A program made the position numbers and the translations under genes. A stretch of DNA of 64,000 nucleotides, taken from assembly GCA_905331485.1 (NCBI GenBank), contig CAJNYT010000051.1, positions 407,310 to 471,309 of the forward strand, given 5' to 3'. The notes under the pieces were generated by a model, which was not told the DNA's origin, made no database searches, and saw only the letters and a list, made by a program, of their open reading frames with translations. Shown in pieces: positions 20,672 through 58,280 of this stretch. Source of the DNA: Rotaria socialis (taxonomy: Eukaryota). Positions within the stretch are counted from its first letter, which is position 1. Each line of letters opens with the position of its first letter.

Positions 20672-21135
20672 ACCGCATGAAAATCGGCGGTTAACCGCGG
20701 TTTTGCCGGTCCGGTTACCGGCTCTCATTACCGCATAACGGATAAATACCGCGGTTTACCACAAAAAATGAACTGGCATTTACCGCGGGAAACCGCCGGT
20801 TTTGATTAATACCGAGGTTACCGCTAAAAAAAGCGGTTAACCAGTTCATCTATAATTTTTCACAGAAAAAGTCTTCCAAATCATCAATTAATCTATTTTA
20901 AAGATCTTTTTTTTTAACTTTTACATGTGATAAACATGCGCAAAAAAACGCCGGTTTACCGCGGTTTTACCGGTCCGGTTACCGGCTCCCATTACCGCAG
21001 AACGAATAAATACCGCGGTTTACCGCAAAAATTGATCAGGTATTCGCAACATGGGTTACGCAGAACGAATAAATACCGCGGTTTACCGCAAAAATTGATC
21101 CGGTATTCGCAACATGGGTTACGACGTTCATCAAT
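20672..21135 (+). repeat. CCGCGG-rich dispersed repeat element, copy 1. Two sub-units are separated by an AT spacer. The 3' 48-bp motif is tandemly duplicated
   Basis: Dense accgcgg / ccggttaccgg motifs in an otherwise AT-rich context. Its reverse complement recurs at 51530-51910. Confidence 0.8.
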
Positions 21136-40162: not shown

Positions 40163-40234
40163 GGGCGTGGGTGTGAGTGTACCAGTGCGATTATGGACAA
40201 ATGGCCATCCTCGTTGCCCACGCACACACATACA
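40163..40234. repeat. TG/CA-rich palindrome (gggcgtgggtgtgagtgt ... cccacgcacacacataca), a member of a recurring motif family in this window
   Basis: Inverted GT-rich and CA-rich blocks separated by about 36 bp. The same architecture is seen at 50109-50188 and 51309-51361. Confidence 0.6.
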
Positions 40235-43001: not shown

Positions 43002-43894
43002 ATTACATTCGTATTCTACAGTTGCGACTGTGTTTTGAAACATAATTGAAATCTAAGATTGAATAAGTAGAAGATGATTTAATACTGATATCAACAGCAA
43101 TCAGGACTCTTTGCTCGGACATTGACAATCTTTTCTCTCAAAATGTAACTATTGAGATCTTTATGATGATATTAAAATCTAAAACATTGAAAGAAGCTAT
43201 TACAGTTTATATAAGAAGTGTTTTAGAAATTCGAAGTATTCTTTTTTTTGTGAATTTAAGTTTGAAAACTTTCACGGTTTCACAAAATAAACAACATCTT
43301 TTGTTTACCTAATTTCATTTTTACCTCATTATGACATATTCGTTCATTCATTTATTGTAGATTTATTATTATATTATAAACATCTATATACCACTAGCTT
43401 TTTAAACAACCTCAACGCTTGAGCTGATCTACGAGCAACTCATTCTAGAAATGATTGCATTTCCATAGGATTAATGTACATATATTAAGAAAATAATTTT
43501 GACACAATAATTTCATTTTTTCTTCAGCGTTTTTTTCTTTAAATTTAACTTAATATGCCATTGAAAAATATTTCAAACCTTATAGAACTTTCTTTAAAAC
43601 ATGTTAACTCAAAAAACAAATGGAGAACAGATATTGATAGCTTGTAGATTAGCTGAAGCGTATAGGAAAGATAGGTCGATATAAGACGTAGCTCTCATTA
43701 ATACAGTTCATCAGATCAAAAGGAAGTAAGACTATCGGGTATCTAAAATTGGTCATCCGTTGACAGTTGAAACGTGTAAGTTAGCGACTAATTCACCATC
43801 TCGAATCAGGTCAAACTGTCATGTCTATACACTATATATCTTCCTTTTAGAGTGTATCTATCCAATCTTTTATCCTTGCTCGTCGCATTTAGCA

Positions 43895-45076
43895 ATGAAA
43901 TGGCTCTATTTTATCCTATTATTAATGGTGGCTATGCTTGTTTGTTTTGCGAAAAATGAACAGCAAACAGTGATATCTGAAATATATTCACTTGATGGCG
44001 ACTTCGACAAGATTCGGGCATCTGAACACATACAATTCGAATTGACTCACGTCAATAGTGAACCGAGTGTCATCATCGAAACGGAACAATGGTTGCATAC
44101 AGGCCAATATATAACTGTCACAACAAGACCGAATGATTGTTTGTATCCATGATTTGAAGAATACTGTCAGCTTTTACTCATAGCGTCCCATTTCCTTTAT
44201 GAATGTTAAGAAGAAGCACTTGATCTATTCAAACATGAAACGGGTTTTTTGAATATATTTCTATATGAAGAAAAAGATAGTTGAGCAAAGAGAAATATTG
44301 ATTTAATAGATTTCTTGAGCAGATTTGTTAGTTCAGTCTCATCGCAATGTGTTGCAAGTAAAGAAAAACTTTTATTTTTACCTTTTATTCTGAAGACACT
44401 TTATTGAAAAAAAAAAGAATTATTTCAAATTTGTTTGGCAGATCTTGATATCAAATTGGCGAGCGGCACTAATTATCCAGCAATCAAAGTGTATGTTAAT
44501 TACCGCAAAGCTCTCCTTAGTTTGGAAATAGATGGAATGTCGTCAATGAGATCAAGAAACGTCATTTTTAGTAATCCTTCATCGCTTTTGAATATTGCAC
44601 ATTCTGGAGCTGGCAGCGCAATACTCAAACTACAACACGGTTCTAATATTAATGTTGCCATATCTGGTACAGGCCAACTCTCTTTGTCCGGTCGAGTTCA
44701 AGGGAATGGACGATTGAGCGTCTCAGGTACTGCGCACTTGGATGCAATCGAGTGTCCAATGAATATTGCGACTGCTGAAGTGGCTGGATCTGGATCAGCT
44801 TCTGTTTATGGTGTAAAAGGAGTTCATGCCACCGTGAGTGGAGTTGGTAACATTTGCTATCGAGGACCTTTGCTTAGTCAAGTGATAAGTGGTCTTGGCT
44901 CGATCAAAGAGTGTATTGTTGAAGGGACACCTGCAGAACCTCAACAAACAGCTACAGAACCTCAACAAACATCTACAGAACCCCAAAATTCATCATCGCA
45001 AAGCGACAAAATCATGGATAGAAATCAACGATTATTAGTGATTCTTGCTACTACAGTTTTCTTTCTCTTCTTCTAA
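43895..45076 (+). CDS. Secreted, GPI-anchor-like protein with a Gly/Ser-rich beta-solenoid region resembling the bacterial DUF2807 (putative adhesin head, GIN) fold; 2 exons
   Basis: Exon 1 about 43895-44138: signal peptide MKWLYFILLLMVAMLVCFA, then NEQQTVISEIYSLDGDFDKIRASEH.... Candidate donor gtttgt at 44139 and acceptor tttggcag at 44441. Exon 2 44442-45076: ...AHSGAGSAILKLQHGSNINVAISGTGQLSLSGRVQGNGRLSVSGTAHLDAIE...VAGSGSASVYGVKGVHATVSGVGNICYRGPL..., followed by Pro/Thr/Gln repeats (TPAEPQQTATEPQQTSTEPQ) and a hydrophobic C-terminal tail (LLVILATTVFFLFF), stop TAA 45074-45076. Confidence 0.55.
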
Positions 45077-48000
45077 TTAATCATTAATTGACACTGTTGC
45101 TTTTCTTTTCAATTCATAATCGATGATCCTATAAAGTATGCCTTTCCCTCAAGAAAATCTTCTTACGCCGATTTCGATAACATAATATTCGTTTCTTAGA
45201 CAACAACAACAGCATGAGATATAAGAATAAGACTTGTTTTAATAGTATCATAGAGTTATACGGCTAGATGATGGATAGGTGAAACGAGCACACTCGCATC
45301 CTTTTTTCTATCAGATTTGCCAACATAACTACAACCTGGAAAAGAAAGCTTGCCCAAGTGACATCATAACCAAATGATAACGGTTCTTCTCAAAAAGATA
45401 ATCAGATAGATCTCTCTTATATTCAACTATATAAATAGAGGAAATATCTATTTCATAAACATTTAAGAACTATTCATTTTGTCCACGCCAATAAATACAA
45501 GGTAAGATATCATTTGATTGTTGAAAACCGAGTCACTTAGGCATACATATATTTCTTCAATTTAATAATGAAACAGCAAAGGCAGGCAACCTGCACACTG
45601 GATTTTTGTTTTTACATTTAATATCTTCTTTTTCACCTTATGGATTTTTTCATCTAAGAACGATAGGGTTGAATGTAAATCACATCTTCAACAATAATTG
45701 TTTTCAAAAGCAACCGTTGTTAGGGAGCAAAAGTTATCGTAAAATGAAATGAGTGTGTGAATTCATTAGTAAATTGATAGTGAACTGCTGCATAGGTTTA
45801 TCGTACTATTTTTAATCCCAAGTCTAGAATATGATCGGCATATGTGAAACCAATGATCTTTTCACTTTGATTGGATTTTATGACCTTTTAATGATATTGG
45901 AGCTGAATTAATTTTTTCATGCCAAGATAAATAAAGTCCAATATCATTATGAAAATCTAAATGACGACGTGATAAATTATTTTTCGTATTATTAATTTCT
46001 GTTGATGACCATCTGTCAAGACCAACAACCCACTCAGGTCTATGAGCAAAACAGGAAGAATATTTCAATGAACTATTTGATGATTCAATTAAACGTGTTG
46101 TTAATGATCGATCAATTGATAGACAACAATAATGAGATGAATATGAACATTCTTCAAATTTCGACAAATCCATCTTTTCAATTTTTTTAGTTTTATTAAC
46201 AACAAAAAAACATTTCTTTTCTTTTTGATTGAACTTTTTAATAGAACTATTGGAGTAATGCTTTTCACCATAATAAGAGCAAAGATGTATTCACACTAAC
46301 AATATGAGTTTTATGCATCACAACATTTTTTTTAATAAGAATAAACATTAATCAAAGTGATCTCTTAAAAATATTTCACAATAATAAGAAAAGAAAGATT
46401 ATTTAGAATTAGGTAAATTGTAAACAGAACAACGTTCAATTAAATTGTTCATTAACACAATTGGCAATAAACAACATTTATGAATTCTTTTTAAAAAAAA
46501 ACCATCATCGATTCACATTCAATGTCAAAACCATTAGAACTATTTGTTTATTTATTTAATTTATTCAAGTGTAAGTGGCCTTGTAGGGCTTTAAATTTAA
46601 ACATTTAACATGTCAACTGTATGTGGAACAACAATAGATTGATTTCGTTAGAAAATTTATTCTTCTAAAACAGATTTGTTTACAATATTAATTTATAATT
46701 AAGTTTAAAGAAAACAAAATGTAGAATTTTGTTTTTTTTTGTTCGACAGAATTAATAGAAATCTTTCAAAATTATTTTCGATCATTTTAAAACTGATTAA
46801 GAATTTTTTTTGAAAAGAATTCATAAGATTTTATTCTAAATAATTTCAATTTTATTTTTTTTTTAGTTTCATATTTTAATAAAATAACAGTTTGTTTTTT
46901 GTGTAAAGGTTACTATTTATTTTTTATTTATAAGCGTTCGACGATTTTCTTTACTACTATCGTTGTTCAATTCTGCATCAGTTGTTTCAGTTGTTGATAG
47001 ATCTCCTAAAATGATATTAAAACAATGAATGTTATTTATTTCGATGCGAAAATGTTTTTATCGCTTTTTTAGATTTTAAAATTTCAATTCATTTTTCAAT
47101 TAGAGAAAATCTCAATATATTGTTTAACAAGACTTAATGTTATTATTTAATAAAACACAATGAATAATAGTGCTAAAGATTCTGAATTCAAAACAAAATG
47201 AGTTAACAGAAATTGATTCTGGTTTAAACATATTTAAAGTGTAGAATTTTAAAGAGATATTAACGAATATTAATATTATGTAAAAAGTTGTAAGAAAATG
47301 GTTCATAACAATGGTCTATTTGATTTTATTAATGTAAAAACATCTGATTTCAAGATTTCAACCAGAGAAAAATCGCTTCAAGTAAATCTTTCTTTTCAAA
47401 TATTTATTTCTAAAAACTACTCAATAAAAGTTTTTCGATAACAGTGCATTATCTATATTGAAGAAAAGTTCTGCATGAACTACTATCCGTAACAGTTATA
47501 GGACTCTATTACAATGCTTTCGCTATTTCTAAGTGTTTGTTGAGCTCAAGTAGATTGCTACGCTGCAGTTTTGAATGAGACCAATATCTTATCTTTGACG
47601 CTTTAGTTCACTGATAATAAGTGATAACACTCGATACTTTTCTTTAATCCTTTCCGACCAGCTACTAGAAGACCGGTAGAAAACAAATATTTTCGGGCGA
47701 ATTCTTAGTTCCGTTATCGGGGAGATGCTAAAAGTGTGGTCGTTGGTACAAAAAAAGCTACACGTTACCGAACGGTCGAGTGTGGCCTACAAGCAAAATC
47801 CCAACATGTCAATTTTTTGAATTCACTGCCTAATCCATCTGAGTAACTCAATAGATCATACATCCATAGGAGAAAATTAATCGCTAATTGTTTCTTCGAT
47901 TGATAGTTAAGACACGAGAAAAACGCAGAATTTCTATTCCGACCCTTTTTGGGGGGATCCCAAACCGACCCCTCCCTGTATTCAGTGAAAGGTTATATTT

Positions 48001-48279
48001 TTCTTGTACGTTTATGGATTTACTCATAAATGTATTGGCGTAATTATCAATGTGCTAAAGAATTAAATATGATGAGTACAGATCAGCCCTGCACCAAATG
48101 TTAACTCAATATTGCCAAATGGCTACATCCGGCTGGAAAGGGTTAAGATGAACTCAATCAAAGCTGTCCCTTCTAAAATAGTATAATTGTTTTATCAATT
48201 CAATATGTACTAATCGAACATCCATTTTTTTCTGTAGTAAATCGTCAAGATCCTAGATTTCCTACTCCTTAAAATTGCC

Positions 48280-48519
48280 TTATCGAAAACCTTGTGATAA
48301 CATACCTGATCGTTTGTTACGAGCAGCGGCGAATTCTTTTTCCAATATTTTAATCATAGTTATTGTGCTTGCTTTTAATCCTTTTCGTGAATCCTGATTG
48401 TCAGCATCAACAACGTAAAATTTAATACCGCCCAGGACGATCATTCCGACCGCCGGAACGATCATCTTAACAGGACTGAAGCGTCTATAAAAATGGTATA
48501 ATAAGGCGTTAATTTGCAC
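48280..48519 (-). CDS. Candidate terminal coding exon of an unidentified gene
   Basis: 79-aa ORF (..GIKFYVVDADNQDSRKGLKASTITMIKILEKEFAAARNKRS) with an upstream tttcag-type acceptor context. No domain assigned. Confidence 0.2.
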   Translation of the reverse strand: MQINALLYHFYRRFSPVKMIVPAVGMIVLGGIKFYVVDADNQDSRKGLKASTITMIKILEKEFAAARNKRSGMLSQGFR

Positions 48520-48670
48520 CTCGTTTCGCCGTAATCCGTCAGCTCGTTTTACGGACCGTTTTTCCGCTAGAAAACGGCCATCGTTTTTAACAAAATATTC
48601 GTCGTTTTCTGAGCTGACGGAAAACGGTGTCGTTTTTCAACGTTTTTTACGTCTTTTACGGCCATTTATG
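48480..48670. repeat. ACGG/CGTTTT-rich repeat related to 22200-22460
   Basis: cgttttacggaccgtttttccgctagaaaacggccatcgtttttaac...gacggaaaacggtgtcgtttttcaacg. Confidence 0.5.
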
Positions 48671-48820
48671 CACCGTTTTCTTGGACCTGGGTGGTTTCTC
48701 GTACACTTGGAAAAATAGTGCTGCTCATTTCAACTATTTCTCCTAATGACATATTCATCAATACACGTTGATTCACAATAGCCAAATCATCACATAAAAA
48801 TGTTGCAAACTCCTTGGTAT

Positions 48821-49117
48821 CCCAGGTCGAACAATCCGGCCTGGAAACGGCCGCTTCCGGGTAGTTTCGTTGATTTTGTGGAAGCAGTATTCCGGTTGGA
48901 AATTTGTCGCATTTTTTCCGGTGGTTTACGATTAATTCCTGCCGGAAAGCACCGGAACTTGGCAGGAATTCGTCGGAAAAGTCCGGCCGTATTTTTGACC
49001 GGAATACTGCTTCCATGTTCCAGCAATTTTCTGTGTTTTCCTGCAGGGTATGGTGCCTTTTCCGCATATTCCCTGGAGTATCTTACGGGATCCGGTGGCC
49101 GGAATGTTCGACCTGGG
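48821..49117 (+). mobile_element. MITE-like foldback element, copy 2 (about 297 bp), with a perfect 13-bp TIR CCCAGGTCGAACA / TGTTCGACCTGGG
   Basis: Direct-orientation homolog of 21236-21500. Internal palindrome gtggaagcagtattccggttgg / accggaatactgcttccatg. The overlapping ORFs on both strands (48666-49192) are artefacts. Confidence 0.8.
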
Positions 49118-50108
49118 ATACTCCTTTTCTGCATATGCAAAGAATTGTTGCGGATTCATAATAGCTATAAGTTAAAAATCGAAGCAAAATAAATAATGAT
49201 CACAAGCAGAAAAAAAACATACTGAAGAATATTTGACCGAACGACAAAATGAACAATGTAATTATGATATTGACACAATAAAGAACACAAGTTTTCGATT
49301 TAGTAATTGATTTCAGTGGACAATTTGCTCACACTCGCAAATATATGTGTAATGTGTGTACACATATACCTATTTCCATATGACCGGTCGTATTTTGTCC
49401 TTTCTTTTCTTTTCGTTCAGTAAGAAAAAGAGACCAAGTATGGCGCCATAGTACGATGGCTATACATTTCTAACATGATATTGGCAAGATAAAAGTGAAA
49501 CGATATCGAATGAGAGATTTTCTTCAATTCCTCAATGGTAAAATTACCTTTTAAACAAAAATGTGTTTATTCAATAGACATTTTTCAATAATAAAACTAG
49601 GGGATGAGAAGTTATTGTTAATTAGTAACAATAATAATAATTTTCTCGAAGAATCCGGCTCGCAGCTTTTCTTGATTATACAAGGTGTATCATAATGATA
49701 AGACCCTCTATTGACTTTTGAGAAAAATAAAAATTTCATTAACTAAAGAACGTTTCATTTCCAATTCAATGGCATATCTATCAGTGTCTAGTAGTAGTCT
49801 ATCATGTATCATATTTGCTTCAATTTGACCAATTAACGTCCATGAAGAAATTGAAAAATTTGAGTTTGAATTGCCTGATAATTATAAGACCGGCCTTTAT
49901 CACAATATGTGAATGCTAAATTCACCCTATCTTTACCAGCTCAAATGACCCTTTGAACTTTCTATTCGGAAGAGGAAATAGTTAGCTACACGTTGAAAAT
50001 ACGCTAGATGGAAAAAGCTAAGTTCAACTTTTCTATCGTTTAAGAAATTAAATTCAATGTCAAAACTACCACTATGTAATTCGAGAAAAGTAAATTTTCT
50101 GTTCCTTA

Positions 50109-50188
50109 GTGTGGGGTGTGGGTGTAGGGTGTAGGTGTGGGTAGCGGTGCACAGACACAATATCAGCATTCACATCCCACACCCGTAG
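50109..50188. repeat. TG/CA-rich palindrome (gtgtggggtgtgggtgtagggtgtaggtgtgggtag ... cacatcccacaccc), overlapping the apparent 5' end of the GTPase fragment ORF
   Basis: TG1-3-like tract followed about 25 bp later by its CA-rich complement. Confidence 0.7.
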
Positions 50189-50877
50189 TTTCTCTGAATA
50201 GTATTATGAAGAATGTCAATAATGTTCTACAATACGGAAAACAAATGCAACATGGTACTAGCATACCTGTCATATGTGTACTCAGTAAAATCGATGAGTA
50301 TTTCCAAGGCCAAGCGCCTAATTGTGAAGACGATGTCAAACAACTGGAAGAATATACTGAAAGAGCTTTAACGTTGGTAAATAAGTACTTGATTGATCCA
50401 GCTGTCCAATGTATTCCCATATCAACAAGATGCAATTATGGTGTTGACCAACTTCGGCTGAGTATCAATGCTCAATCACCACTGAATGCTCAAATCATTG
50501 ACAAAAATCTTGATTACATTAGCCGATGTCGACTATCAATAGCCAATAAAATTATAGGGGCTTTTTCTACAGCTTCTGCAGCAGCATCGTTTCTACCTCT
50601 TGCGAACATCGTCATTGTAACTTTCTTAAAAGAATGGATGTATCGAATGTTGGCTTGTTTTTCAATCGACCCAAATCGAACCTCGGATACGTTCAAAGCG
50701 GTGCATCGTATGCAACAAACTGCTAGTGTAGCTATTCGTGTTGGTGCACTCTTCATTGGAGGTGTACTTCAATTAAGCATTGTGGGCTACTTTATTGGCA
50801 CGAGTATATGTGTAGTTACAGCCGCAACATCAACAGCTGCTCTCGGTTGGGCATCCTATTTTTACTTTGTTGACTAG
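50137..50877 (+). pseudogene. 3' portion (or terminal exon) of a TRAFAC-class GTPase gene (GTPase C): G4-like LSKID, C-terminal transmembrane anchor. No G1/G3 motifs are present in the ORF
   Basis: Translation ...IPVICVLSKIDEYFQ...CIPISTRCNYGVDQLRLSI... ends with hydrophobic TM segments (LPLANIVIVTFL; GALFIGGVLQLSIVGYFIGTSICVVTAATSTAALGW), stop at 50875-50877. The upstream region is a TG-rich repeat rather than a P-loop exon. It could be a genuine last exon whose 5' exons lie outside a recognisable range. Confidence 0.45.
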
Positions 50878-51250
50878 ATAGAAGTTTGTCGTTTCTACGC
50901 AAACACCATTACCAGAAGGCATTCTATGAAACTGAATAAATCTAGAGAGAATGAGTATTGAAAACAGGATTTTTTCGTTCTTTCAACAGTTTATTTTGCT
51001 CTCTTAACTGTAACGCGTTGTTTTTTGAATGTTCTAAATAAAGACTTCATTTCGATTCAATGAATATTAAATTTGCTACTTTTCAATCATAATTTTTCCT
51101 GAAGTACCTGCCTGATTCCTTTTTAGTAAATAATCGTTACATGAATGGCAACAAATATCTGGATGTATAGATCGAGTGAGCGTTTATCAGTCTATTCATA
51201 ATTATCATTTTTAACGGAATTTTTTTTCTAGAAAAAAAAGCATTTCTATG
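50761..51250 (+). repeat. Direct repeat copy 1 (490 bp): last about 40 codons plus the 3' UTR of GTPase C
   Basis: About 93% identical to 56999-57466. Both end at ...aaaagcatttctatg. Confidence 0.9.
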
Positions 51251-51361
51251 TGGGTGGGTGTGGGTGTGTCATAGATGTCATAATACCGTTACACTGAGTA
51301 TTGTGATGAGTGTGGGTGTGTGGGGGTATATAAGCAAGACACACACCCACACCCTCACCCT
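51251..51361. repeat. TG-rich block (tgggtgggtgtgggtgtg), then a TG/CA palindrome (gagtgtgggtgtgtggggg tatataagcaagaca cacacccacaccctcaccctc), immediately 3' of direct-repeat copy 1
   Basis: Read directly. It marks the left boundary of the putative inserted cassette. Confidence 0.8.
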
Positions 51362-51529
51362 CAAGAAAAAAAAGTTTTCCTATTTTTCTATTCTAACAGG
51401 AAAGTGCATATGACAATTATAATTCGAATTCGAAAAAAACCTTTTTCCTAGTTTTCCTATTTTCCTGTTGTCGAATGGGAGTGCTAGTTGAATTTTTATT
51501 TATTTTCGAAGTAACTTGATGCACTCCCA

Positions 51530-51910
51530 TGTTGCGAATACCGGATCAATTTTTGCGGTAAACCGCGGTATTTATCCGTTCTGCGGTAATGGGAGCCGGT
51601 AGCCGGACCGGTAAAACCGCGGCAAACCGGCGGTTTTTTGCGCATGTTTATCACATGTAAAAGTAAAAACAAAGGATCTTTAAAATAGTTTAATTGATGA
51701 TTTGGAAGACTTTTTCTGTCAAAATTTATAGATGAACCGGTTAACCGCCTTTTTTAGCGGTAACCGCGGTATTAATCAAAACCGGCGATTTACCGCGGTA
51801 AATGCCAGCTCATTTTTTGTGGTAAACCGCGGTATTTATCCGTTCTGCGGTAATGAGAGCCGGTAACCGGACCGGTAAAACCGCGGTTAACCGCCGATTT
51901 TCATGCGGTT
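51530..51910 (-). repeat. CCGCGG-rich dispersed repeat, copy 2 (reverse complement of 20672-21110)
   Basis: ccgcggtatttatccgttctgcggtaatgagagccggtaaccggaccggtaaaaccgcggttaaccgccgattttcatgcggt is the reverse complement of 20672-20755. The AT spacer is also conserved. Confidence 0.85.
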
Positions 51911-51997
51911 TTTATTACATGGGCTTGAAGCTTCATTTATATTCGAATTCGAATTAGGTATATCATGGCTTTGATACAGATATTAGCCTCATCTAAG

Positions 51998-52020
51998 CGC
52001 ACACACCCGAACCCACATCG
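51998..52020. repeat. Solo CA-rich block (cgcacacacccgaacccacatcg)
   Basis: Same motif class as 51341-51361. Confidence 0.5.
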
Positions 52021-52553
52021 ACACTCTTGTTTTTAAATCTTAGCTGTCTACAAGTTAAATATGAATATATTTGCTTAATTTGGTCAAACAATCGAATGAA
52101 GAACATCAATAGTGGCAAGAATTGATTTATGTAAAGGATTATCTCTGTTTTTCATGAGTGCCTTTTCTATATAAGAATATTCTATACTTGATATCAAGCT
52201 TGTCTTTTAAACTTGATCGTTTTTAACTTGTGGAAAAAGGTTTGCCTTTTCGAAGAAAAATAATTTCACAGAAAGAATTTTTCAGATTTCATTTTTATCT
52301 CCTACATATAATTATTCACTGTCAAGTAACATATATGCAGATTTGCCGGAAAATCTGATAGAATTCCAGTACATATTATACCAATATAATTCTAAAGCTC
52401 TATCAAGATAAAGTCATCTTAAACTGGATTTTTTTTAGAACGGTACGAGCTACCATTTTCATGAACGTAGGTATAATGAGAAGAATTAAACATTTACAAC
52501 CGCAAATTACTTTAATAACAAGACAAAAATCAATTTGTATTCGAAAAATATAT

Positions 52554-54464
52554 TCATGTATTGTTTCCGTATAAGTAACTCACGACTTGGTTCTGGCCTC
52601 GTTTATTTGAAAGGATCTTCACAGTAGCATCGTAATAGCGTTTCATATCTATGTTTTCGTCCATTACACTAATAGTTTTATTGAATTTTGTGAGTAAATC
52701 TTGAGTTCGACCAATAATGTCATAGTTTTTTTTTATTGAAAGTAATGCAGTGACTTTTGCTTTTAATTGTGTTAACGATGAGTTTATTTCTGTTTCCAAC
52801 TTTTGCTGTCTGGCAATCAAGTGTTGTGCTTTAGTTTTTAACATAAATTCTTGTTGTTCAGCATAAGTATAATGTGATCGAGTCTCATTATCTGGTAATG
52901 TTACTCGGACTTTTGCTGTTTGTTGTCGATACATAGGATTATGGGGATTATACCCATCATCATGATCATAATGAGCCTTACTGTATTTCTGATCATGTGG
53001 TCGTTCTCTTGAATATGTGTCATGTCTCTCATCACGATCATGTGATGCTGAAATCTTATGATCTTTACCACAGGTTTCAGCAGTCGCTGATGATGAAGGA
53101 TATCCAGCAGTTCGAGCAGAATATGGTCTTGTAGTTGAATGTGTGCTGTTGTGAGAAGAATCATGATGAAATGAAGTATCGGTATTCTGTTTTAATGATG
53201 ATGAACACGTAGAAGAACGGCTTTCTTGAGGATCATGGTGATGATGATGATTGGATGAAGGATTTTTATACTCTGGTGGCTTGCAATGCTGACCAGTGTC
53301 ATTATCAGTATGCGCCGAAGGATTATTTTTATGCATGTAGTCATCATTCGTTGAATATGAACCGTGTGGATCTCGATTAACAACAAAAGATCTCGAGGTG
53401 TCTTTTTCACAACTCCTTCCTGACGAAGAGGCGCTTTGTGCTGATGCTGGTCGACGATTTTCAATAAATTTCGATGGATTTTCTGATTTTGCGGGTAGTA
53501 GTGATCGTGATTGATGTTGTGGTGATTGATCCCAACGCATAACTGTGATTTCTTGATCTTTTTCCCATTTTTCATTACATTGCATTGTATGGTGCGCATT
53601 GCTAATGCCATCTTCTGTTGCAGTTTGGTCTTTATATATATTAATTAGACTGATAATTTTGTTGATAGCCTCAATAATACAATTTTCAATTAAAGCTATT
53701 TTAATACCACCAATTTCGAATACTTGTGTTGAAACGCTATTAAATTGTAACAATTTTCGCACTAAAGTTTCAGTTATGTCCAGAGTGTCTTCAAAATCTT
53801 GTTCAAACCGACGTATTGCTTTTGATGATTGATTTTTGGGGTTCCATCGAAATAAGCTATTTTGCAAGTGAAATACCCTGCTATCATCTATTTTAAAATG
53901 ATCATGTAATATTGCTGGATCTAAATTAACACTAAGTTTATCACAATTTGTCAAAACTGCAACACAATTGTTTAATAAATCATTTGGCCATATTTGATAC
54001 AATGAATGTAAAACGTTTTTGAATGACACACCGAGACGTGGAAGAGCACCGTTTATAACAATAATAATTCCATTTAGGAAAGGTAATTGTTTTAGAGTCT
54101 TTTCAATGCAGTCCAAATTTCTTTCATCGACATCGAAGCCGTTTGTGTCATTGAATCCTGGTGTATCAATTAGTTCGAGATAAAAATCTGCTGTTCGAAA
54201 TGAATACGTCATGCATTTCTGCGTCTGACTTTGTATTTGATCATTAATATCACGTTCACTGTGCTTATTTCGGTATTTCTTATCAAGACAGTCCAACCAA
54301 TTTGCACATGGTATAGATAATTTAACTTGTGGACTAGTACAAAAAATATTTTTTGGATCTTTTGTACCATAACTCATATTATACAAAAAGTTAATTAATG
54401 AAGATTTTCCGACACCAGCATCGCCAAGTAAAATAAAACGTTTCGGCTCGCGCGCTGAGGTCAT
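52554..54464 (-). CDS. Intronless TRAFAC-class P-loop GTPase A (636 aa): N-terminal G-domain, then a His/Ser/Thr-rich disordered region and a C-terminal coiled coil; GIMAP/AIG1-Toc34-septin-like
   Basis: Full-length ORF with G1 LLGDAGVGKSSLINFL, G3 LIDTPGFNDTNG, hydrophobic IIIVINGAL and G4-like VLTNCDKL. HHHHHDPQ and S/T/H-rich low complexity in the middle. Heptad-like C-terminus (LIARQQKLETEINSSLTQLKAKVTALLSIKKNYD). Coordinates taken from the ORF track. Confidence 0.8.
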   Translation of the reverse strand: MTSAREPKRFILLGDAGVGKSSLINFLYNMSYGTKDPKNIFCTSPQVKLSIPCANWLDCLDKKYRNKHSERDINDQIQSQTQKCMTYSFRTADFYLELIDTPGFNDTNGFDVDERNLDCIEKTLKQLPFLNGIIIVINGALPRLGVSFKNVLHSLYQIWPNDLLNNCVAVLTNCDKLSVNLDPAILHDHFKIDDSRVFHLQNSLFRWNPKNQSSKAIRRFEQDFEDTLDITETLVRKLLQFNSVSTQVFEIGGIKIALIENCIIEAINKIISLINIYKDQTATEDGISNAHHTMQCNEKWEKDQEITVMRWDQSPQHQSRSLLPAKSENPSKFIENRRPASAQSASSSGRSCEKDTSRSFVVNRDPHGSYSTNDDYMHKNNPSAHTDNDTGQHCKPPEYKNPSSNHHHHHDPQESRSSTCSSSLKQNTDTSFHHDSSHNSTHSTTRPYSARTAGYPSSSATAETCGKDHKISASHDRDERHDTYSRERPHDQKYSKAHYDHDDGYNPHNPMYRQQTAKVRVTLPDNETRSHYTYAEQQEFMLKTKAQHLIARQQKLETEINSSLTQLKAKVTALLSIKKNYDIIGRTQDLLTKFNKTISVMDENIDMKRYYDATVKILSNKRGQNQVVSYLYGNNT

Positions 54465-54922
54465 GTTTCTTATTTTTTAAGCAGAATGTAATATGAAATG
54501 AGTTGTCTATACTATTGCAAAGTATCGAGCTTATATATTCAGAATGCAGTTGACTTTTTCCTACTCGTTGATGTATCTTATCAAGACTCTTGAGAATATT
54601 TACTAAGAAGAACAAAGTTTATTGCTCTTGGAATATATTGATGCAAATTTTCAGCATATAACATACAGAAGCAAGGAAGTACATGCCTATCTCAACCGTT
54701 CGAGAGACTTCAATGGTCTATGTTGGAACAAATAAGAAGATATGGCAATAAAGATTACAAGCGAATTTTTGTCATTGCAGTAAGTCAAATCAAACAAATT
54801 TACATTTTTTTTCCAAGTTTTTGCTTTGTTCGAAATTACATGTCTACATGTATATATAAATTACTTCAAAAAAAATACATCATTATACATCAAAAATTAA
54901 AAATTAAAAGCCAAAAGCGAAG
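54465..54922. promoter_or_regulatory. About 458-bp divergent intergenic region between GTPase A (-) and GTPase B (+); presumed bidirectional promoter
   Basis: Head-to-head gene arrangement. No element verified. Confidence 0.4.
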
Positions 54923-56416
54923 ATGTCTTTTTCCAGTATTACCGTGTTCTCCTGCTCTACCGTCCGAAAGGAGTCGAATCCAAATATTATCATTCTATTC
55001 ATTGGTGAATCAGGCTCAGGCAAATCAACTTGTATAAATTATTTTGCCAATTATTTTACCAATTCTTCATTTGATGAAGAAGATCATTATTCAAATATGA
55101 AAATTGTTATACCAAACAGTCTATTTCCTGAGCCGAATTTTCCTGAGGGACACCATCGACATTGTGAGCGTAATGTACATGATACTAGTATGAGTCAAAC
55201 GCAAGAATGTACTGCTTATGATTTTCGATGGAATGGGCAATGTATCAAAATTATAGATACACCTGGTTTTAATGATACAGATTCCCATAAAGATGATCAA
55301 AATATTCAGAAAATCTTGACACAAGCTTCACAAGTTCCATTCATTAATGCTATTGTAATCACGATCAATGGCACAAATGTTCGTTTATCAACATCCATCA
55401 AAACAACATTGAGTCAACTGCGTAGTTCATTACCAGATAAAATTTTTAAAAATTTATTTTTTATCTTCACAAATTGTACTGAAGAAACTAGAAACTTTGA
55501 TTTATCCCTGATTTCTGAATTCAAACCATCAGAAGAACGAACATTTCATATGCAAAATGCATTGTTTTCCATCAAAGATAAGTCGTTACTTCAAAACACA
55601 AAATCAGTACGAAAAATGGCACAAACATGGAAGGAGTCGGTAGAAACAATGGGCGAAATAATGCAGGAAATAAATCAAACATCGGCTACATCGGTACAAG
55701 TATTTAATGATATGAGAATTCGACGAGAACAACTGATTGTACACAAGGAGAATTTGATTGAAAAACAAAAGTCTTTGCTAAATATCATGAATACATTGCA
55801 AATTGAAAAAGAGCGTTTGAAAAATGCCTCTGAAGATCAACAAGCAAACAAAAATTTCACGGAATCAAAACGTATCAGCGTTATTGATATAGAAAAAAAA
55901 TCATATTATAGTACAATTTGTCTGAGACATGGTAAAGTACAAGTATGCCATGAGAACTGTTCGTTATCATATGAGCCCAAGTTGAATTTGCATCATTTTC
56001 AACAATGTGCTGCTGCAAATGGATCAAATTGCCGACATTGTGCGTGTGGAATGAATGACCATTTACATTCTTACGAAATTCCAGTATCACGACTAAAAAC
56101 GGTTGAAGAAATCATTCAAAGTAAAAAGGCTGCTTTTGAACAAGCCAATAGAAATATAAAAAGTAGTAGCGATAGAGTTGTTCTCTTAGAGCGTGTTCGA
56201 GATGCTTGTCAGAATGAGGTTAATGATATTAAAGATGGCTTGTTGACGACAATAAAGGAGTTGAAACAAATTTGTTCACACTTCAATTTTCACGATGAAA
56301 TGAATGGTACAATACAAAAGTTAAGAAAAGAAGCTAAAATTGCAACAGACTTTAAAGCAAAGCAAGAATTCACTCGAACAGCCAATGCCATTGAACATTT
56401 TATCAATCGAATTTAA
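54923..56416 (+). CDS. Intronless TRAFAC-class P-loop GTPase B (497 aa), a paralog of A: G-domain, Cys/His-rich segment, C-terminal coiled coil
   Basis: G1 LFIGESGSGKSTCINYF, G3 IIDTPGFNDTDS, VITINGTNVRL and G4-like FIFTNCTEE. Shared blocks with A (SQTQ(K/E)C(M/T)(T/A)Y.FR, ERTFHMQNALF / SRVFHLQNSLF). CxxC/His cluster CHENCS...CRHCACG. Coiled-coil tail. Coordinates taken from the ORF track. Confidence 0.8.
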   Translation: MSFSSITVFSCSTVRKESNPNIIILFIGESGSGKSTCINYFANYFTNSSFDEEDHYSNMKIVIPNSLFPEPNFPEGHHRHCERNVHDTSMSQTQECTAYDFRWNGQCIKIIDTPGFNDTDSHKDDQNIQKILTQASQVPFINAIVITINGTNVRLSTSIKTTLSQLRSSLPDKIFKNLFFIFTNCTEETRNFDLSLISEFKPSEERTFHMQNALFSIKDKSLLQNTKSVRKMAQTWKESVETMGEIMQEINQTSATSVQVFNDMRIRREQLIVHKENLIEKQKSLLNIMNTLQIEKERLKNASEDQQANKNFTESKRISVIDIEKKSYYSTICLRHGKVQVCHENCSLSYEPKLNLHHFQQCAAANGSNCRHCACGMNDHLHSYEIPVSRLKTVEEIIQSKKAAFEQANRNIKSSSDRVVLLERVRDACQNEVNDIKDGLLTTIKELKQICSHFNFHDEMNGTIQKLRKEAKIATDFKAKQEFTRTANAIEHFINRI

Positions 56417-56959
56417 TAAGCAATTACAGTGACGACCATTTATTCTAGAACTGTGACATTTCGTACCAGAATCTAGCAACTAGTACGAACAGTGATAAAG
56501 CTGTATAGGGATTGTATGCGCTTTAAAAATTGTTTAAAATATATATACTTCATTCTTACTCTTAATAGTTTTAATTAATTTTAATTTAGCCTATTTACGT
56601 ATATCAACAAGGTTATTGAAAGTCAAATAACATGAAGATGTGAGCCAATACAGGTTGGTGCTTGTACTGGCGTCACATTATGGGCAGAAAAAAGGAACTA
56701 GGAGTAATTCTTTCAATGACTGCAGCTAATATTTTAATTTTTGCTTTGTTACAAATAGCTGACACATCATACTGATTGTCTGTATTTACTCAGCTCCTCC
56801 TAATTGGCAGGTTGCTAGAAAATCAACTTTCCGACTTTTGAAAACTATGCATTTGACACAACACAATATGGTTGTATCATTATGATGTTTTTCAGTCAAA
56901 TGAGACAAGAATTTCTATCATGCAGTTAGAATACTACGCGGATTTAACTTGAGGATGTG

Positions 56960-57113
56960 AGTATCGAGTTTTCTCCTATGTGCGCCCACACTCATCCAGG
57001 TGCACTTCAATTAAGCATTGTGGGCTACTTTATTGGCGCTGGTATATGTGTAGCTACAGCCGCAACATCAACAGCTGCTCTCGGTTGGGCATCCTATTTT
57101 TACTTTATTGACT
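56960..57113 (+). pseudogene. Orphan 3' remnant of a GTPase-C-like gene (TM-anchor tail only), within direct-repeat copy 2
   Basis: The translation ..HPGALQLSIVGYFIGAGICVATAATSTAALGWASYFYFID-stop is about 90% identical to the C-terminus of 50137-50877. It is preceded by a CA-rich block (gtgcgcccacactcatcc) and no upstream exons. Confidence 0.6.
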
Positions 57114-57466
57114 AGATAGAAGTATGCTGTTTCTACGCAAATACCATTACTAGAAGACATTCTATGAAACTGAATAAATCTAGAGAGAATGAGTATTGAA
57201 AACAGGATTTTTTTGTTCTCTTAACTCTAACGCGTTATTTTTTCAATGTTCTAAATAAAGACTTTTCATTTCGATTCAATGAATATTAAATTTGTTATTT
57301 TTCAATCATAATTTTTCCTGAAGTTCCTGCCTGATTCCTTTTTAGTAAATAATCGTTACATAAATGCCAACAAATATCTGAATGTATAGATCGAGCGAGC
57401 GTTTATCAGTCTATTCATTATCATCATTTTTAACGGTTTTTTTTTCTAGAAAAAAGCATTTCTATG
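56999..57466 (+). repeat. Direct repeat copy 2 (468 bp) of 50761-51250
   Basis: Collinear alignment throughout. It is followed by unrelated sequence (ttaacaag), whereas copy 1 is followed by a TG-rich block. Confidence 0.9.
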
Positions 57467-58280
57467 TTAACAAGTTTTAAAAACCAATAAACATCTTCAT
57501 CCCTATATAAGTACTGGAACATAAATAGTATTCATACATGATTCTGACCCTCAAAAGAATTTATTTATTCATTCTATTTCAGTCAGTTCGAAAAAAAAAG
57601 ATTTAATGCAAAACTGTACGATCATGTTTATGTCTTGCTAATGAAGATAAGACAAGTCATGATTCTGACAACGATAATATATTCCTTAAATGTCATTCGC
57701 TGTACAATTCATTCCTAATAATAGTTAAGTTGATGATTGCAATCGACTGAAGTCAAGTTTAAGTAGAAGAACAAATTAATTATGTATATCAAAAAGAAAC
57801 TCTTTCATCTTCTAGCAACATGCAACACTAACAATAGTAGGATAAATCCTCATGGAATTCAAGTTCATGAACACATATAATTAGTTTTTCCATAGAAGAA
57901 AAAACAAAAAAAAATTAATATGAATCTTTCTTTTTCTCGACATACATTTATTTATAATAAATTTAAGGTAAAAAAATATTAGCCACCCGATGTTTTCTAA
58001 TTGTATGTGACACAACTTGCATCACAAATATATGATTATATCATATTTAATTATACGTCCGACGGCCAACGTCTGTTTTCTAAAAAAATCAAAACAATTC
58101 CTCTGTTGATCAAATTTGACTTGGCAATCATTTTGTTTTCTTTCTTTTCCGATGCTACTGATGAATAAAAGATCTTCTCAACATATTTCATTTGTCATGC
58201 AATAAACAATGCGTGCTACAGTACGATAATAATTGTCCTAGAGTATGTTGCCTTTTTTTCTTCTTTAGACAATCATTATC

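What the first reader, a model, noticed from the sequence alone, without database searches (positions are those of the whole stretch)
50137..50877. Truncated or membrane-anchored third GTPase whose 5' end coincides with a TG-rich palindrome
The ORF carries a G4-like LSKID, a G5-like CIPIS and a C-terminal TM anchor (as in GIMAP1/5-type tail-anchored GTPases), but no P-loop. Its apparent 5' end lies inside a gtgtggggtgtgggtg tract (50109-50147). Either the upstream exons were displaced by a TG/CA-palindrome insertion, making it a pseudogene, or the P-loop exons lie farther upstream
Basis: seen in the sequence. Interest (0 to 1): 0.5.

Follow-up and report, generated by a model that had tools for sequence, protein, structure and literature searches.

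The report
Truncated GTPase allele capped by telomere repeats
The ORF is the surviving 3' 57% of an intronless rotifer GTPase gene: in this Rotaria socialis haplotype the promoter and P-loop half were replaced by 4.3 kb of other DNA, joined through head-to-head telomere repeats, while an intact allele persists in other individuals, so it is a gene remnant with an informative chromosome-break scar.

Summary
The ORF, the LSKID (G4) and CIPIS (G5) motifs, the missing P-loop and the TG tract are all at the stated coordinates.

The window is Rotaria socialis, a bdelloid rotifer. The ORF is codons 177-406 of an intronless 406-codon gene (MMR_HSR1-type G domain plus a DUF697-like membrane domain). 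It is not a GIMAP/AIG1 gene. Intact alleles exist at the same locus in other R. socialis assemblies and in R. magnacalcarata.

Against the intact allele, 704 bp (upstream DNA plus codons 1-175 and 1 nt of codon 176) is replaced by 4,309 bp (45874-50182). That insert ends in about 5 copies of TGTGGG, the bdelloid telomere repeat, facing CCCACACCC, which abuts the remnant with 2-3 nt of microhomology. No N-terminal exon exists anywhere in the window, so the "P-loop exons farther upstream" idea is refuted.

Sibling truncated haplotypes carry a stop codon and a 594-bp deletion, so this is most likely a pseudogene allele.

Telomere-like tracts in the orientation expected for 3'-end addition also mark the other rearrangement junctions here and in R. 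magnacalcarata. I infer healing of broken ends by telomerase followed by end fusion. The gene remnant is ordinary; the recurring scars are moderately interesting.

The parts
45874..50108 (.). Inserted DNA that replaces the gene's upstream region and codons 1-175 (the full replacement is 45874-50182, 4,309 bp). No domain-bearing ORFs. Part of it (47504-49782, 'X') is 94-96% identical to DNA lying about 2 kb upstream of the orthologous gene in one R. magnacalcarata haplotype. It contains a MITE-like foldback at about 48821-49113.
   Evidence: Absent from the intact R. socialis allele L009, where 704 bp (L009 9823-10526) lie instead. The left junction at 45873/45874 has no telomere tract. X homology. 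Pfam finds nothing significant in its ORFs. No Rfam family, so no hammerhead ribozyme, anywhere in the window.
50109..50147 (+). G-strand telomeric repeat tract, about 5 degenerate copies of TGTGGG, capping the right end of the inserted DNA.
   Evidence: TRF period 6, 5.3 copies. TGTGGG is the bdelloid telomere repeat (PMC7943196, PMC8494291). The tract is identical in all truncated haplotypes L004, L010 and L011.
50148..50170 (.). Spacer between the two telomeric arms, of unknown origin.
   Evidence: Sequence read. It is unrelated to the spacers of the other TG->CA pairs.
50171..50184 (-). C-strand telomeric tract (CACATCCCACACCC; the G-strand is on the minus strand) abutting the gene remnant. 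This is the orientation expected if TGTGGG repeats were added to the 3' end of the broken right-hand fragment.
   Evidence: Homology to the intact allele starts at 50183, with ACC/CC microhomology, that is, GG on the extended strand.
50183..50877 (+). Gene remnant: 2 nt of codon 176, codons 177-406 and the stop codon of the 406-codon G-domain + DUF697-like gene. It retains the helix before strand beta5, beta5, G4 (SKID, 50284-50295), G5 (ISTR within 50410-50424) and the whole C-terminal hydrophobic helical domain (hydrophobic stretches at 50560-50634 and 50719-50847). It lacks G1 (P-loop), G2 and G3. GenBank annotates a 210-aa product from the Met at 50245.
   Evidence: 89% identical over 229 aa to the intact R. 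socialis P0022 and R. magnacalcarata P0020. Family alignment. Structure model of the intact protein. Hydropathy. The annotated product P0146 is identical to window 50245-50874.
50878..51251 (+). The gene's native 3' flank, ending at an older breakpoint.
   Evidence: Collinear with R. magnacalcarata L001 up to its position 11838. It ends at ...CTATGT, directly followed by GGGTGGGTGTGGG, whereas copy B and R. magnacalcarata continue with TAAC....
51249..51363 (.). Second telomere-repeat junction: a TG tract (51249-51270), 40 bp, a TG tract (51308-51328), 10 bp, then a CA tract (51339-51363). It forms the left boundary of a block of about 5.3 kb that is inserted relative to R. magnacalcarata.
   Evidence: It is also present in the intact R. 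socialis allele L009. Insertion relative to R. magnacalcarata.
52000..52025 (-). A further degenerate C-strand telomere-like tract (GCGCACACACCCGAACCCACATCGACA) inside the inserted block. The zone of elevated haplotype divergence ends about here.
52554..56416 (.). Two divergently transcribed AIG1-like GTPase genes (52554-54464 minus strand, 636 aa; 54923-56416 plus strand, 497 aa) carried by the inserted block. They are unrelated to the truncated gene beyond the P-loop.
   Evidence: Pfam AIG1 35.9 bits (above the cut-off) for the 497-aa protein and 25.3 bits (just below it) for the 636-aa protein. Homologues in Adineta and Didymodactylos are about 70% identical. Absent from the R. magnacalcarata locus.
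56985..57467 (+). Second, shorter fragment of the same gene ('B'): a short C-strand-like tract (GCGCCCACACTCATCC, 56985-57000 by my reading) followed by codons 369-406, the stop codon (56998-57115) and the 3' flank. This copy sits at the ancestral syntenic position, followed by the 111-aa ORF and the IRK channel gene.
   Evidence: tblastn E 2e-11. Sequence. It is 93.8% identical to 50760-51251 and shares 46 derived sites with that copy against R. magnacalcarata. Synteny.

Best explanation
The ORF is a 5'-truncated, most likely non-functional allele of an intronless 406-codon bdelloid rotifer gene (N-terminal helices, an MMR_HSR1-type G domain, and a DUF697-like hydrophobic helical domain). Shown: in this R. 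socialis haplotype, 704 bp (178 bp upstream plus codons 1-175 and 1 nt of codon 176, which include G1-G3) are replaced by 4,309 bp of other DNA. The right junction of the replacement is a head-to-head pair of telomeric repeats, (TGTGGG)~5 facing CCCACACCC. Intact alleles exist at the same locus in other R. socialis individuals and in R. magnacalcarata. Inferred mechanism: a double-strand break inside the gene left a right-hand fragment whose 3' end (minus strand, ending ...ACGG) was extended by telomerase with TGTGGG repeats, that is, chromosome healing or a neotelomere. Another DNA end, also carrying G-strand repeats on its own 3' end, was then joined to it, so the two caps were fixed facing each other. 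An earlier event of the same kind, shared by all R. socialis haplotypes, placed a block of about 5.3 kb carrying two AIG1-like GTPase genes just downstream of the gene. That event duplicated 736 bp of the gene's 3' end (fragment B) and left telomere-like tracts at both of its boundaries. Without a promoter, a start codon or strands beta1-beta4 of the G domain, the remnant cannot bind GTP.
For: Identity: E 1e-111 to a 388-aa G-domain protein, and 89% identity over 229 aa to the intact 406-aa proteins P0022 and P0020. Full-length relatives pass Pfam MMR_HSR1. Six of 32 distant relatives match DUF697, best E 6e-9.

Intact alleles: L009, L015 and L014 in R. socialis and L008 in R. magnacalcarata, each an uninterrupted 1,221-bp ORF in the same gene neighbourhood.

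Breakpoints: window 36047-45873 matches L009 1-9822 at 99.6%, 45874-50182 is absent from L009, and 50183-51523 matches L009 10527-11856.

No N-terminal coding sequence occurs anywhere in the window.

The same junction occurs in at least 9 assemblies, so it is not an assembly artefact.

Decay: the sibling truncated haplotype L004 has an in-frame TGA and a 594-bp 3' deletion.

Telomere identity: TRF period 6; the repeat is TGTGGG in bdelloids; telomeric repeats have been detected at deletion breakpoints in A. vaga lines.

Orientation rule: the A-left, A-right and B-left boundaries, plus three boundaries in R. magnacalcarata L001, all carry the tract on the side and strand expected for 3'-end addition. 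All six close TG/CA pairs are ordered TG then CA.

Seeds: native ...ACGG|GTGTGGG at A-left and ...CTATGT|GGGTGGG at A-right.
Against: The 229-codon frame is still open in this haplotype, and GenBank annotates a 210-aa product. dN/dS is about 0.5 on both the truncated lineage (12 nonsynonymous: 8 synonymous changes) and the intact lineage (11: 8), so relaxed constraint specific to the remnant is not shown. No expression data could be consulted. Telomerase involvement is inferred from sequence only. The left junction of the 4.3-kb replacement has no telomeric tract. The B-left tract is short and degenerate. The source of the 4.3 kb is unknown. The R. magnacalcarata L001 comparison contains an assembly gap.
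Confidence: 0.85

Rival explanations
1. The remnant is a functional, N-terminally truncated gene that encodes a DUF697-like membrane protein of about 210-223 aa, started from Met 50206 or 50245 and driven by a promoter within the inserted DNA.
For: Open frame of 229 homologous codons with a conserved C-terminal domain. Annotated as a protein in GenBank. DUF697-only relatives of 160-230 aa exist. dN/dS of about 0.5 is no higher than in the intact allele.
Against: Other haplotypes with the same truncation have an in-frame stop and have lost the last ~70 codons, so the product is dispensable. With only about 20 lineage-specific substitutions, an open frame is expected by chance in a sizeable fraction of cases. 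The first ~95 residues would be an unfoldable fragment of a G domain. The native promoter is gone.
Confidence: 0.1
2. It is a split gene: the P-loop exons lie farther upstream and are spliced to an acceptor near 50188-50210.
For: The tract ends in ...CCCGTAG, which resembles a 3' splice site.
Against: Intact alleles are intronless across this point. No N-terminal homology appears in any frame of the 64-kb window. The missing 704 bp is replaced, not displaced.
Confidence: 0.02
3. The TG...CA unit is a small foldback or MITE-type transposable element, or the terminus of a telomere-associated retroelement such as Athena/Terminon, that inserted into the gene. On this view it is not a product of telomerase healing.
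For: Similar TG->CA units recur (19961, 40166, 51308; L001 7833, 8940). Two of them share a short AAGCAAGA-like spacer motif. Bdelloid Athena elements are associated with telomeric repeats. Real MITEs are polymorphic at this locus.
Against: The spacers are otherwise unrelated and vary in length. The arms are tandem 6-mers of the telomere unit with variable copy number. The units sit exactly where collinearity with unrearranged alleles ends and replace sequence rather than simply inserting. All are oriented TG->CA, whereas a palindromic TE need not follow the 3'-addition rule. There is no reverse-transcriptase ORF or hammerhead ribozyme.
Confidence: 0.1

Closest known systems
Neotelomere formation (chromosome healing) at breakpoints in the bdelloid Adineta vaga (PMC13564844), and short internal telomeric-repeat stretches in bdelloid subtelomeres (Gladyshev & Arkhipova 2007, as cited in PMC7943196; PMC2861651)
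   Same: The same repeat unit, TGTGGG, lies directly at break or deletion boundaries, and the organisms are from the same group.
   Different: Here the scars are fixed in natural haplotypes of obligately aquatic, nondesiccating Rotaria species. They lie in a gene-containing region, are arranged head to head (both ends capped and then joined), and have an intact 'before' allele available for comparison. No Athena sequence was detected.
Short interstitial telomeric sequences inserted at double-strand-break repair sites in primates and rodents (abstract of PMC8537989; also my own knowledge of Nergadze et al.)
   Same: Telomerase-type repeats sit at an internal repair junction, defined by comparison with an orthologous or allelic 'empty' site, with short microhomology at the start of the tract.
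   Different: Mammalian short interstitial tracts are unidirectional arrays inserted with little loss of sequence. Here two opposed arrays flank a spacer, and the event replaced 704 bp with 4.3 kb.
Head-to-head telomere fusion site at human 2q13 (my own knowledge, not checked with the tools)
   Same: G-strand repeats face C-strand repeats, the signature of two chromosome ends joined.
   Different: Scale and context differ: the arms here are tens of bases long and join kilobase-scale segments within a locus, not two whole chromosomes.
MMR_HSR1 (Era/EngB-like) G domain fused to DUF697 (PF05128; JGI labels relatives 'GTPase Era.../DUF697 family')
   Same: Full-length alleles have a G domain above the MMR_HSR1 cut-off and a C-terminal hydrophobic helical domain that links by profile search to DUF697-matching proteins. 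The best G-domain structural matches are EngB/YsxC and MnmE, with target-normalised TM-scores of 0.57-0.67.
   Different: The Rotaria proteins themselves do not reach the DUF697 Pfam cut-off (best 13 bits in P0015). The named members of the clade are all bdelloid rotifers; the unnamed metagenome and read-assembly members cannot be placed taxonomically. G4 is SKID rather than NKxD in R. socialis and R. magnacalcarata (and in one unnamed relative, P0018). Whole-protein matches to mitofusin, BDLP and IRG are weak, with TM-scores of 0.3-0.4.
GIMAP/AIG1 tail-anchored GTPases
   Same: Both are GTPases with hydrophobic C-termini, and the window gene sits next to two AIG1-like genes.
   Different: There is no AIG1 domain match for the ORF or for most relatives. 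The C-terminus has three hydrophobic stretches in a ~130-residue helical domain rather than one terminal anchor.

Membership tests
Bdelloid G-domain + DUF697-like gene family (P0020/P0022 clade) | Significant full-length sequence homology to family members | tested here: met
   E 1e-111 to P0001. 89% identity over all 229 residues to P0020 and P0022. Syntenic position.
Bdelloid G-domain + DUF697-like gene family (P0020/P0022 clade) | Complete G domain with G1 (GxxxxGKS), G3 (DxxG), G4 and G5; Pfam MMR_HSR1 above the cut-off | tested here: not met
   The window ORF has no MMR_HSR1 hit and no P-loop; only G4 (SKID) and G5 remain. Intact relatives score 29-50 bits against a cut-off of 21.9. The window copy is therefore a fragment of a member, not a complete member.
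DUF697 (PF05128) | Pfam PF05128 match at or above the gathering score (27.7 bits) | tested here: inconclusive
   The window ORF has no hit at E<=1, and P0015 scores 13.1 bits. However, a profile of the C-terminal half retrieves proteins of which 6 of 32 match DUF697, best E 6.3e-9; others score 17-21 bits. The link is transitive only.
GIMAP/AIG1 GTPases | AIG1-type G domain (PF04548) above the cut-off | tested here: not met
   No AIG1 hit for the ORF. Among full-length relatives only P0015 comes near the cut-off (25.7 against 27) and P0005 is far below it (14.8).
GIMAP/AIG1 GTPases | Single C-terminal transmembrane tail anchor (GIMAP1/5 type) | tested here: not met
   Hydrophobic stretches at ORF residues 142-166 and 195-237 (the second is double-length). 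Modelled as five helices at 275-405 of the intact protein.
Interstitial telomeric sequence / neotelomere scar at a break-repair junction | Tandem copies of the organism's own telomere repeat | tested here: met
   5.3 copies of a 6-nt unit at 50109-50142, with further arrays at 51254-51268 and 51342-51363. The unit TGTGGG is documented for bdelloids, including support in other rotifers.
Interstitial telomeric sequence / neotelomere scar at a break-repair junction | Position exactly at a rearrangement breakpoint defined against an unrearranged allele or orthologue | tested here: met
   Homology to intact L009 starts at 50183, immediately after CCCACACC. Copy A ends at 51251, immediately before GGGTGGGTGTGGG. 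By my arithmetic, tracts plus a 10-bp margin cover about 0.6% of the window, so 2 of 4 breakpoints falling on them has a chance probability of about 2e-4.
Interstitial telomeric sequence / neotelomere scar at a break-repair junction | Strand orientation consistent with addition to the 3' end of the retained fragment, with a short seed of microhomology | tested here: met
   A-left, A-right, B-left and L001 X-right, Y1-left and Y1-right all conform. Seeds are GG and TGT. The B-left tract is weak.
Interstitial telomeric sequence / neotelomere scar at a break-repair junction | Dependence on telomerase | not testable with these tools
   This would need experiments such as break induction with or without telomerase activity.
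Pseudogene (truncated allele) | Loss of promoter, start codon or essential domain | tested here: met
   704 bp including 178 bp upstream and codons 1-175 (G1-G3) is missing.
Pseudogene (truncated allele) | Relaxed selection or disabling mutations | tested here: inconclusive
   The window copy has no stop codon, and dN/dS of about 0.5 equals that of the intact allele lineage. Sibling haplotypes have a TGA stop plus a 594-bp deletion.
Pseudogene (truncated allele) | Absence of a functional transcript or protein | not testable with these tools
   No RNA-seq access.
Athena/Terminon telomere-associated retroelements | Reverse-transcriptase ORF and hammerhead-ribozyme motifs next to the telomeric repeats | tested here: not met
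   No Rfam family at gathering score in the whole window. No ORF of 110 aa or more in 45874-50108 other than the two overlapping ones at 48666-49192, which lie over the MITE-like foldback, and no significant domain in the three ORFs of the insertion that were scanned.

The most novel reading that the evidence does not exclude
At this locus, nearly every structural difference between haplotypes and between two Rotaria species is bounded by telomeric repeats in the orientation expected for 3'-end addition, often as opposed TG->CA pairs. One ~1-kb gene fragment in each species lies as CCCACA-fragment-TGTGGG, although for fragment A the two caps arose in two separate events. This would mean that capping of both broken ends by telomerase, followed by end-to-end joining and capture of other DNA, is a routine and heritable pathway of double-strand-break repair and gene relocation in bdelloid rotifers. 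It would operate even in species that never desiccate and in gene-bearing regions, not only at subtelomeres, and it would leave a readable scar that allows past breaks to be mapped genome-wide.
Probability: 0.4. Interest if true: 0.65.

Novelty: new member of a known kind. Interest (0 to 1): 0.4.

Why it matters
The ORF by itself is an ordinary gene remnant that current annotation mislabels as a 210-aa protein. Its value lies in the junction. The same species keeps the 'before' allele (intact gene) and several 'after' alleles, so the breakpoints can be read to the base. They carry the rotifer telomere repeat on both joined ends. This gives a natural, fixed example of the neotelomere intermediates that were recently proposed from irradiated and mutation-accumulation lines of Adineta vaga. 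The same signature bounds the relocation of two AIG1-like GTPase genes and the break-up of a neighbouring DUF2807 gene in the sister species. If this is general, head-to-head TGTGGG/CCCACA pairs could serve as a genome-wide marker of past chromosome breaks and of how bdelloids move or capture DNA.

Tried and rejected
1. Upstream P-loop exons. tblastn with five full-length relatives, and with residues 1-177 of the intact R. socialis protein (word size 2, E up to 100), plus a six-frame GxxxxGK[ST] scan, found only the two AIG1 genes' P-loops and two spurious hits.

2. GIMAP/AIG1 membership was rejected on Pfam and hydropathy.

3. I first treated R. magnacalcarata P0001 (388 aa) as the intact reference with one intron. 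That 54-nt 'intron' is a gene-model device that hides an in-frame TGA in that assembly. The truly intact forms are the 406-aa P0020, P0022 and P0148.

4. I first thought the AIG1 block had disrupted the gene. The intact allele L009 shows that the block lies downstream of a complete gene, so the truncation was a second, later event.

5. dN/dS as a pseudogene test was uninformative: about 0.5 on both lineages. My codon comparison for the IRK exons was spoiled by gaps and is not used.

6. Athena or Penelope-like involvement: no Rfam hit and no reverse-transcriptase ORF.

7. Hairpin significance of the palindrome is weak, z -1.95.

8. Fold search of the intact-protein model gave only weak whole-chain matches (mitofusin, BDLP, IRG; TM-scores 0.3-0.4), so I make no claim of dynamin-like membership.

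9. The Terminon paper (PMC5850863) is not held in the library.

10. I could not test whether the TG->CA pairs at 19961 and 40166 are also rearrangement junctions, because no R. magnacalcarata sequence was available for those sites.
Full report
**1. Observation**

The ORF at 50137-50877 (+) exists. Its 'start' is a mechanical GTG inside a TG-rich tract. LSKID (50281-50295) and CIPIS (50410-50424) are present, and there is no P-loop. Tandem Repeats Finder reports 5.3 copies of a 6-nt unit at 50109-50142. A complementary CCCACACCC lies at 50176-50184. Telomere-like 12-mers are strongly over-represented in the window, 18 against 0.49 expected. The C-terminus is not a single anchor: it holds three hydrophobic stretches spread over about 105 residues.

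**2. Organism and gene**

The window has about 32% G+C. It is 100% identical to a Rotaria socialis contig (GCA_905332275.1, locus L010).

The ORF's best relatives are bdelloid rotifer 'G domain-containing' proteins.
- Full-length members are 380-420 aa. They have a P-loop (GGTDVGKSSLIN), G3 (DSIGFG), G4 (NKID, or SKID in R. socialis and R. magnacalcarata), G5 (VSA/VST), and a conserved hydrophobic C-terminal domain.
- They pass Pfam MMR_HSR1.
- An exhaustive profile search with the C-terminal half finds only 41 cluster representatives. Six of the 32 scanned match DUF697, best E 6e-9, which is a transitive link only.
- An AlphaFold model of the intact R. socialis protein (pLDDT 75) shows N-terminal helices, a Ras-like G domain (strands at 83-89, 122-135, 164-169, 205-209 and 252-254) and five long C-terminal helices.
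- Foldseek gives good G-domain matches (EngB, MnmE) and only weak whole-chain matches to mitofusin, BDLP and IRG.
- The ORF has no AIG1 domain match. The two neighbouring genes (52554-54464 on the minus strand, 54923-56416 on the plus strand) are AIG1-like and belong to a different family.

**3. The missing half**

Homology to relatives begins at 50188 in tblastn and at 50183 at the DNA level. Residues 1-177 match nothing in any frame of the window.

Intact alleles were found at the same locus:
- R. magnacalcarata L008 (P0020, 406 aa).
- R. socialis L009 (P0148), L015 and L014.

Each is one uninterrupted 1,221-bp ORF, so there is no intron at the breakpoint.

The alignment with L009 is decisive:
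- Window 36047-45873 matches L009 1-9822 at 99.6%.
- Window 45874-50182 (4,309 bp) has no counterpart. L009 instead carries 704 bp: 178 bp upstream plus codons 1-175 and 1 nt of codon 176.
- Window 50183-51523 matches L009 10527-11856.
- After a polymorphic 400-bp MITE, window 51925-61282 matches at 99.2%.

**4. The junction**

The intact allele reads ...AAGAACCGTAGTTTCTCTG.... The window reads ...CACATCCCACACCCGTAGTTTCTCTG.... On the minus strand the native end ...AAACTACGG is followed by GTGTGGGATGTG, which is telomere repeats starting from a GG seed. Thirty-odd bases to the left, about five G-strand repeats on the plus strand cap the end of the inserted DNA.

TGTGGG is the bdelloid telomere repeat (PMC7943196, PMC8494291). 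Telomeric repeats at deletion breakpoints, interpreted as neotelomeres, were recently reported for A. vaga (PMC13564844).

The junction is base-for-base identical in the truncated haplotypes L004, L010 and L011, and truncated alleles occur in at least nine assemblies in all. It is therefore real and arose once. The left junction at 45873/45874 is plain.

**5. An older event of the same kind**

Relative to R. magnacalcarata, all R. socialis haplotypes carry about 5.3 kb inserted just downstream of the gene, with a 736-bp duplication of the gene's 3' end.
- Copy A ends at 51251 (...CTATGT) and runs straight into GGGTGGGTGTGGGTGTG. A second TG tract and a CA tract follow (51249-51363).
- Copy B (56998-57467) begins right after GCGCCCACACTCATCC and continues into the ancestral downstream synteny, the 111-aa ORF and the IRK gene.
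- A and B share 46 derived sites against R. magnacalcarata, so the duplication post-dates the species split.
- The inserted block carries the two AIG1-like genes, which have homologues about 70% identical in Adineta and Didymodactylos.

The 'GTPase cluster' is thus a by-product of rearrangement.

**6. The same signature in the sister species**

In R. magnacalcarata L001, a 1,021-bp fragment of the neighbouring DUF2807 gene is bounded by CCCACAGCCACACCCCACACCC on its left and GGGTGTGAGGTGTGAG on its right. These tracts sit exactly where collinearity with the window ends. The 'X' segment there ends in a TG tract at the position where the window continues with native sequence.

All six close pairs seen are TG then CA, and every testable boundary follows the 3'-addition rule. 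Caveat: L001 contains an assembly gap.

**7. Is the remnant functional?**

Arguments against function:
- The promoter, the start codon and G1-G3 are gone.
- The sibling truncated haplotype L004 (assembly of individual AK15; the same allele is in four further assemblies, L003 and L005-L007) has an in-frame TGA and lacks 594 bp, including the last ~70 codons.
- Haplotype L011 is a mosaic with an extra partial copy.

Arguments for function:
- The frame is open, and GenBank lists a 210-aa product.
- Lineage-specific substitutions are 12 nonsynonymous to 8 synonymous on the truncated lineage against 11 to 8 on the intact lineage, which is uninformative.

I rate a pseudogene allele at about 0.85 and a functional fragment at about 0.1.

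**8. Mechanism (inferred)**

A break occurs. Telomerase extends the exposed 3' ends from short G/T seeds. Two capped ends are then joined, with capture of other DNA, which leaves the caps fixed head to head.

The rival view, a foldback or MITE element or an Athena-type retroelement, is disfavoured for four reasons:
- The spacers are unrelated and the hexamer copy number varies.
- The units sit exactly at breakpoints.
- Their orientation is uniform.
- There are no reverse-transcriptase ORFs or ribozyme motifs.

**9. Unexplained**

The segment between the junctions (about 50183-52000) differs by 4-10% among R. socialis haplotypes whose flanks are 99-100% identical. In the coding part, the truncated allele, the intact allele and R. 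magnacalcarata are equidistant. Possible causes are ectopic conversion, error-prone repair synthesis, or old haplotypes with homogenised flanks. I could not decide among them.

**10. Verdict**

The ORF is an ordinary truncated allele of a known kind of gene, and it is mis-annotated as a protein. The telomere-repeat scars are a known class of feature in bdelloids. Here they are unusually well documented, with before-and-after alleles, base-level junctions, recurrence, and occurrence in nondesiccating species. Interest is 0.4.

Noticed in passing
window 56985-57467: A second, shorter fragment of the same gene (last 38 codons plus the 3' flank) lies 6.8 kb downstream at the ancestral syntenic position. 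It is preceded by a short CCCACAC-like tract and is 93.8% identical to 50760-51251.
   Followed up: yes
window 51252-56997 (L009 11594-16936): A block of about 5.3 kb carrying two divergent AIG1-like GTPase genes is inserted relative to R. magnacalcarata. It comes with a 736-bp target duplication and has telomere-like tracts at both boundaries. The block's origin is unknown.
   Followed up: partly
window 50183-52000: Divergence hot spot: 4-10% difference among R. socialis haplotypes whose flanks are 99-100% identical. It is bounded roughly by the telomere-like junctions.
   Followed up: partly
window 19961-20009 and 40166-40228: Two more TG->CA opposed telomere-like pairs with variant units (GGGTGTGAGT ... 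CCCACAGCCAC / CCCACGCACAC). The one at 40166 lies in a 5-kb gene-free stretch between the PARP4-like and DUF2807 genes, within the interval where the gene neighbourhood differs from that of R. magnacalcarata (upstream neighbour PARP4-like here, MBOAT there). I could not test whether they mark rearrangement junctions.
   Followed up: no
L001 7833-7907 and 8935-8990 (R. magnacalcarata): A 1,021-bp fragment of the DUF2807 gene is flanked by C-strand repeats on the left and G-strand repeats on the right, which is 'mini-chromosome' polarity. The adjacent segment X also ends in a TG tract. L001 has an N gap at 6167-6266.
   Followed up: partly
L001 10594-10596 (R. magnacalcarata GCA_905321285.1): This allele of the orthologous gene has an in-frame TGA (CGA in L008). 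The public gene model P0001 hides it inside a predicted 54-nt intron, which removes the beta5 strand that precedes G4 (the model's splice even recreates an NKID motif).
   Followed up: yes
window 51524-51924 and about 20660-21060 (minus strand): A 400-bp MITE with CCCATGT...ACATGGG termini and an internal 101-nt direct repeat. The insertion at 51524 is polymorphic: present in the window, L011 and L014, absent in L004 and L009.
   Followed up: partly
window about 48821-49113; L004 9440-9758: Foldback, MITE-like elements (GCCCCAGGTC...GACCTGGGGC termini in L004) are inserted polymorphically. They produce long spurious ORFs on both strands (48666-49192).
   Followed up: no
L011 11685-12044 (R. 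socialis AK11): This haplotype carries an extra 102-bp piece of the gene (equivalent to window 50560-50661) followed by a second copy of the TG/TG/CA block. It looks like an unequal-recombination product of the window-type and L004-type haplotypes, or an assembly chimera.
   Followed up: partly
window 43760-45076: The upstream neighbour encodes a DUF2807 domain (bacterial 'auto-transporter adhesin head GIN' domain; Pfam E 7e-18). It is a candidate horizontally acquired gene. It is intact in R. socialis and fragmented in R. magnacalcarata.
   Followed up: no
window 50284-50295: The G4 motif is SKID instead of the canonical NKxD. This holds in both intact and truncated alleles of R. socialis and R. 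magnacalcarata, whereas nearly all other family members keep NKID (one unnamed relative, P0018, also has SKID). The lineage's guanine specificity may already have been altered before the truncation.
   Followed up: no
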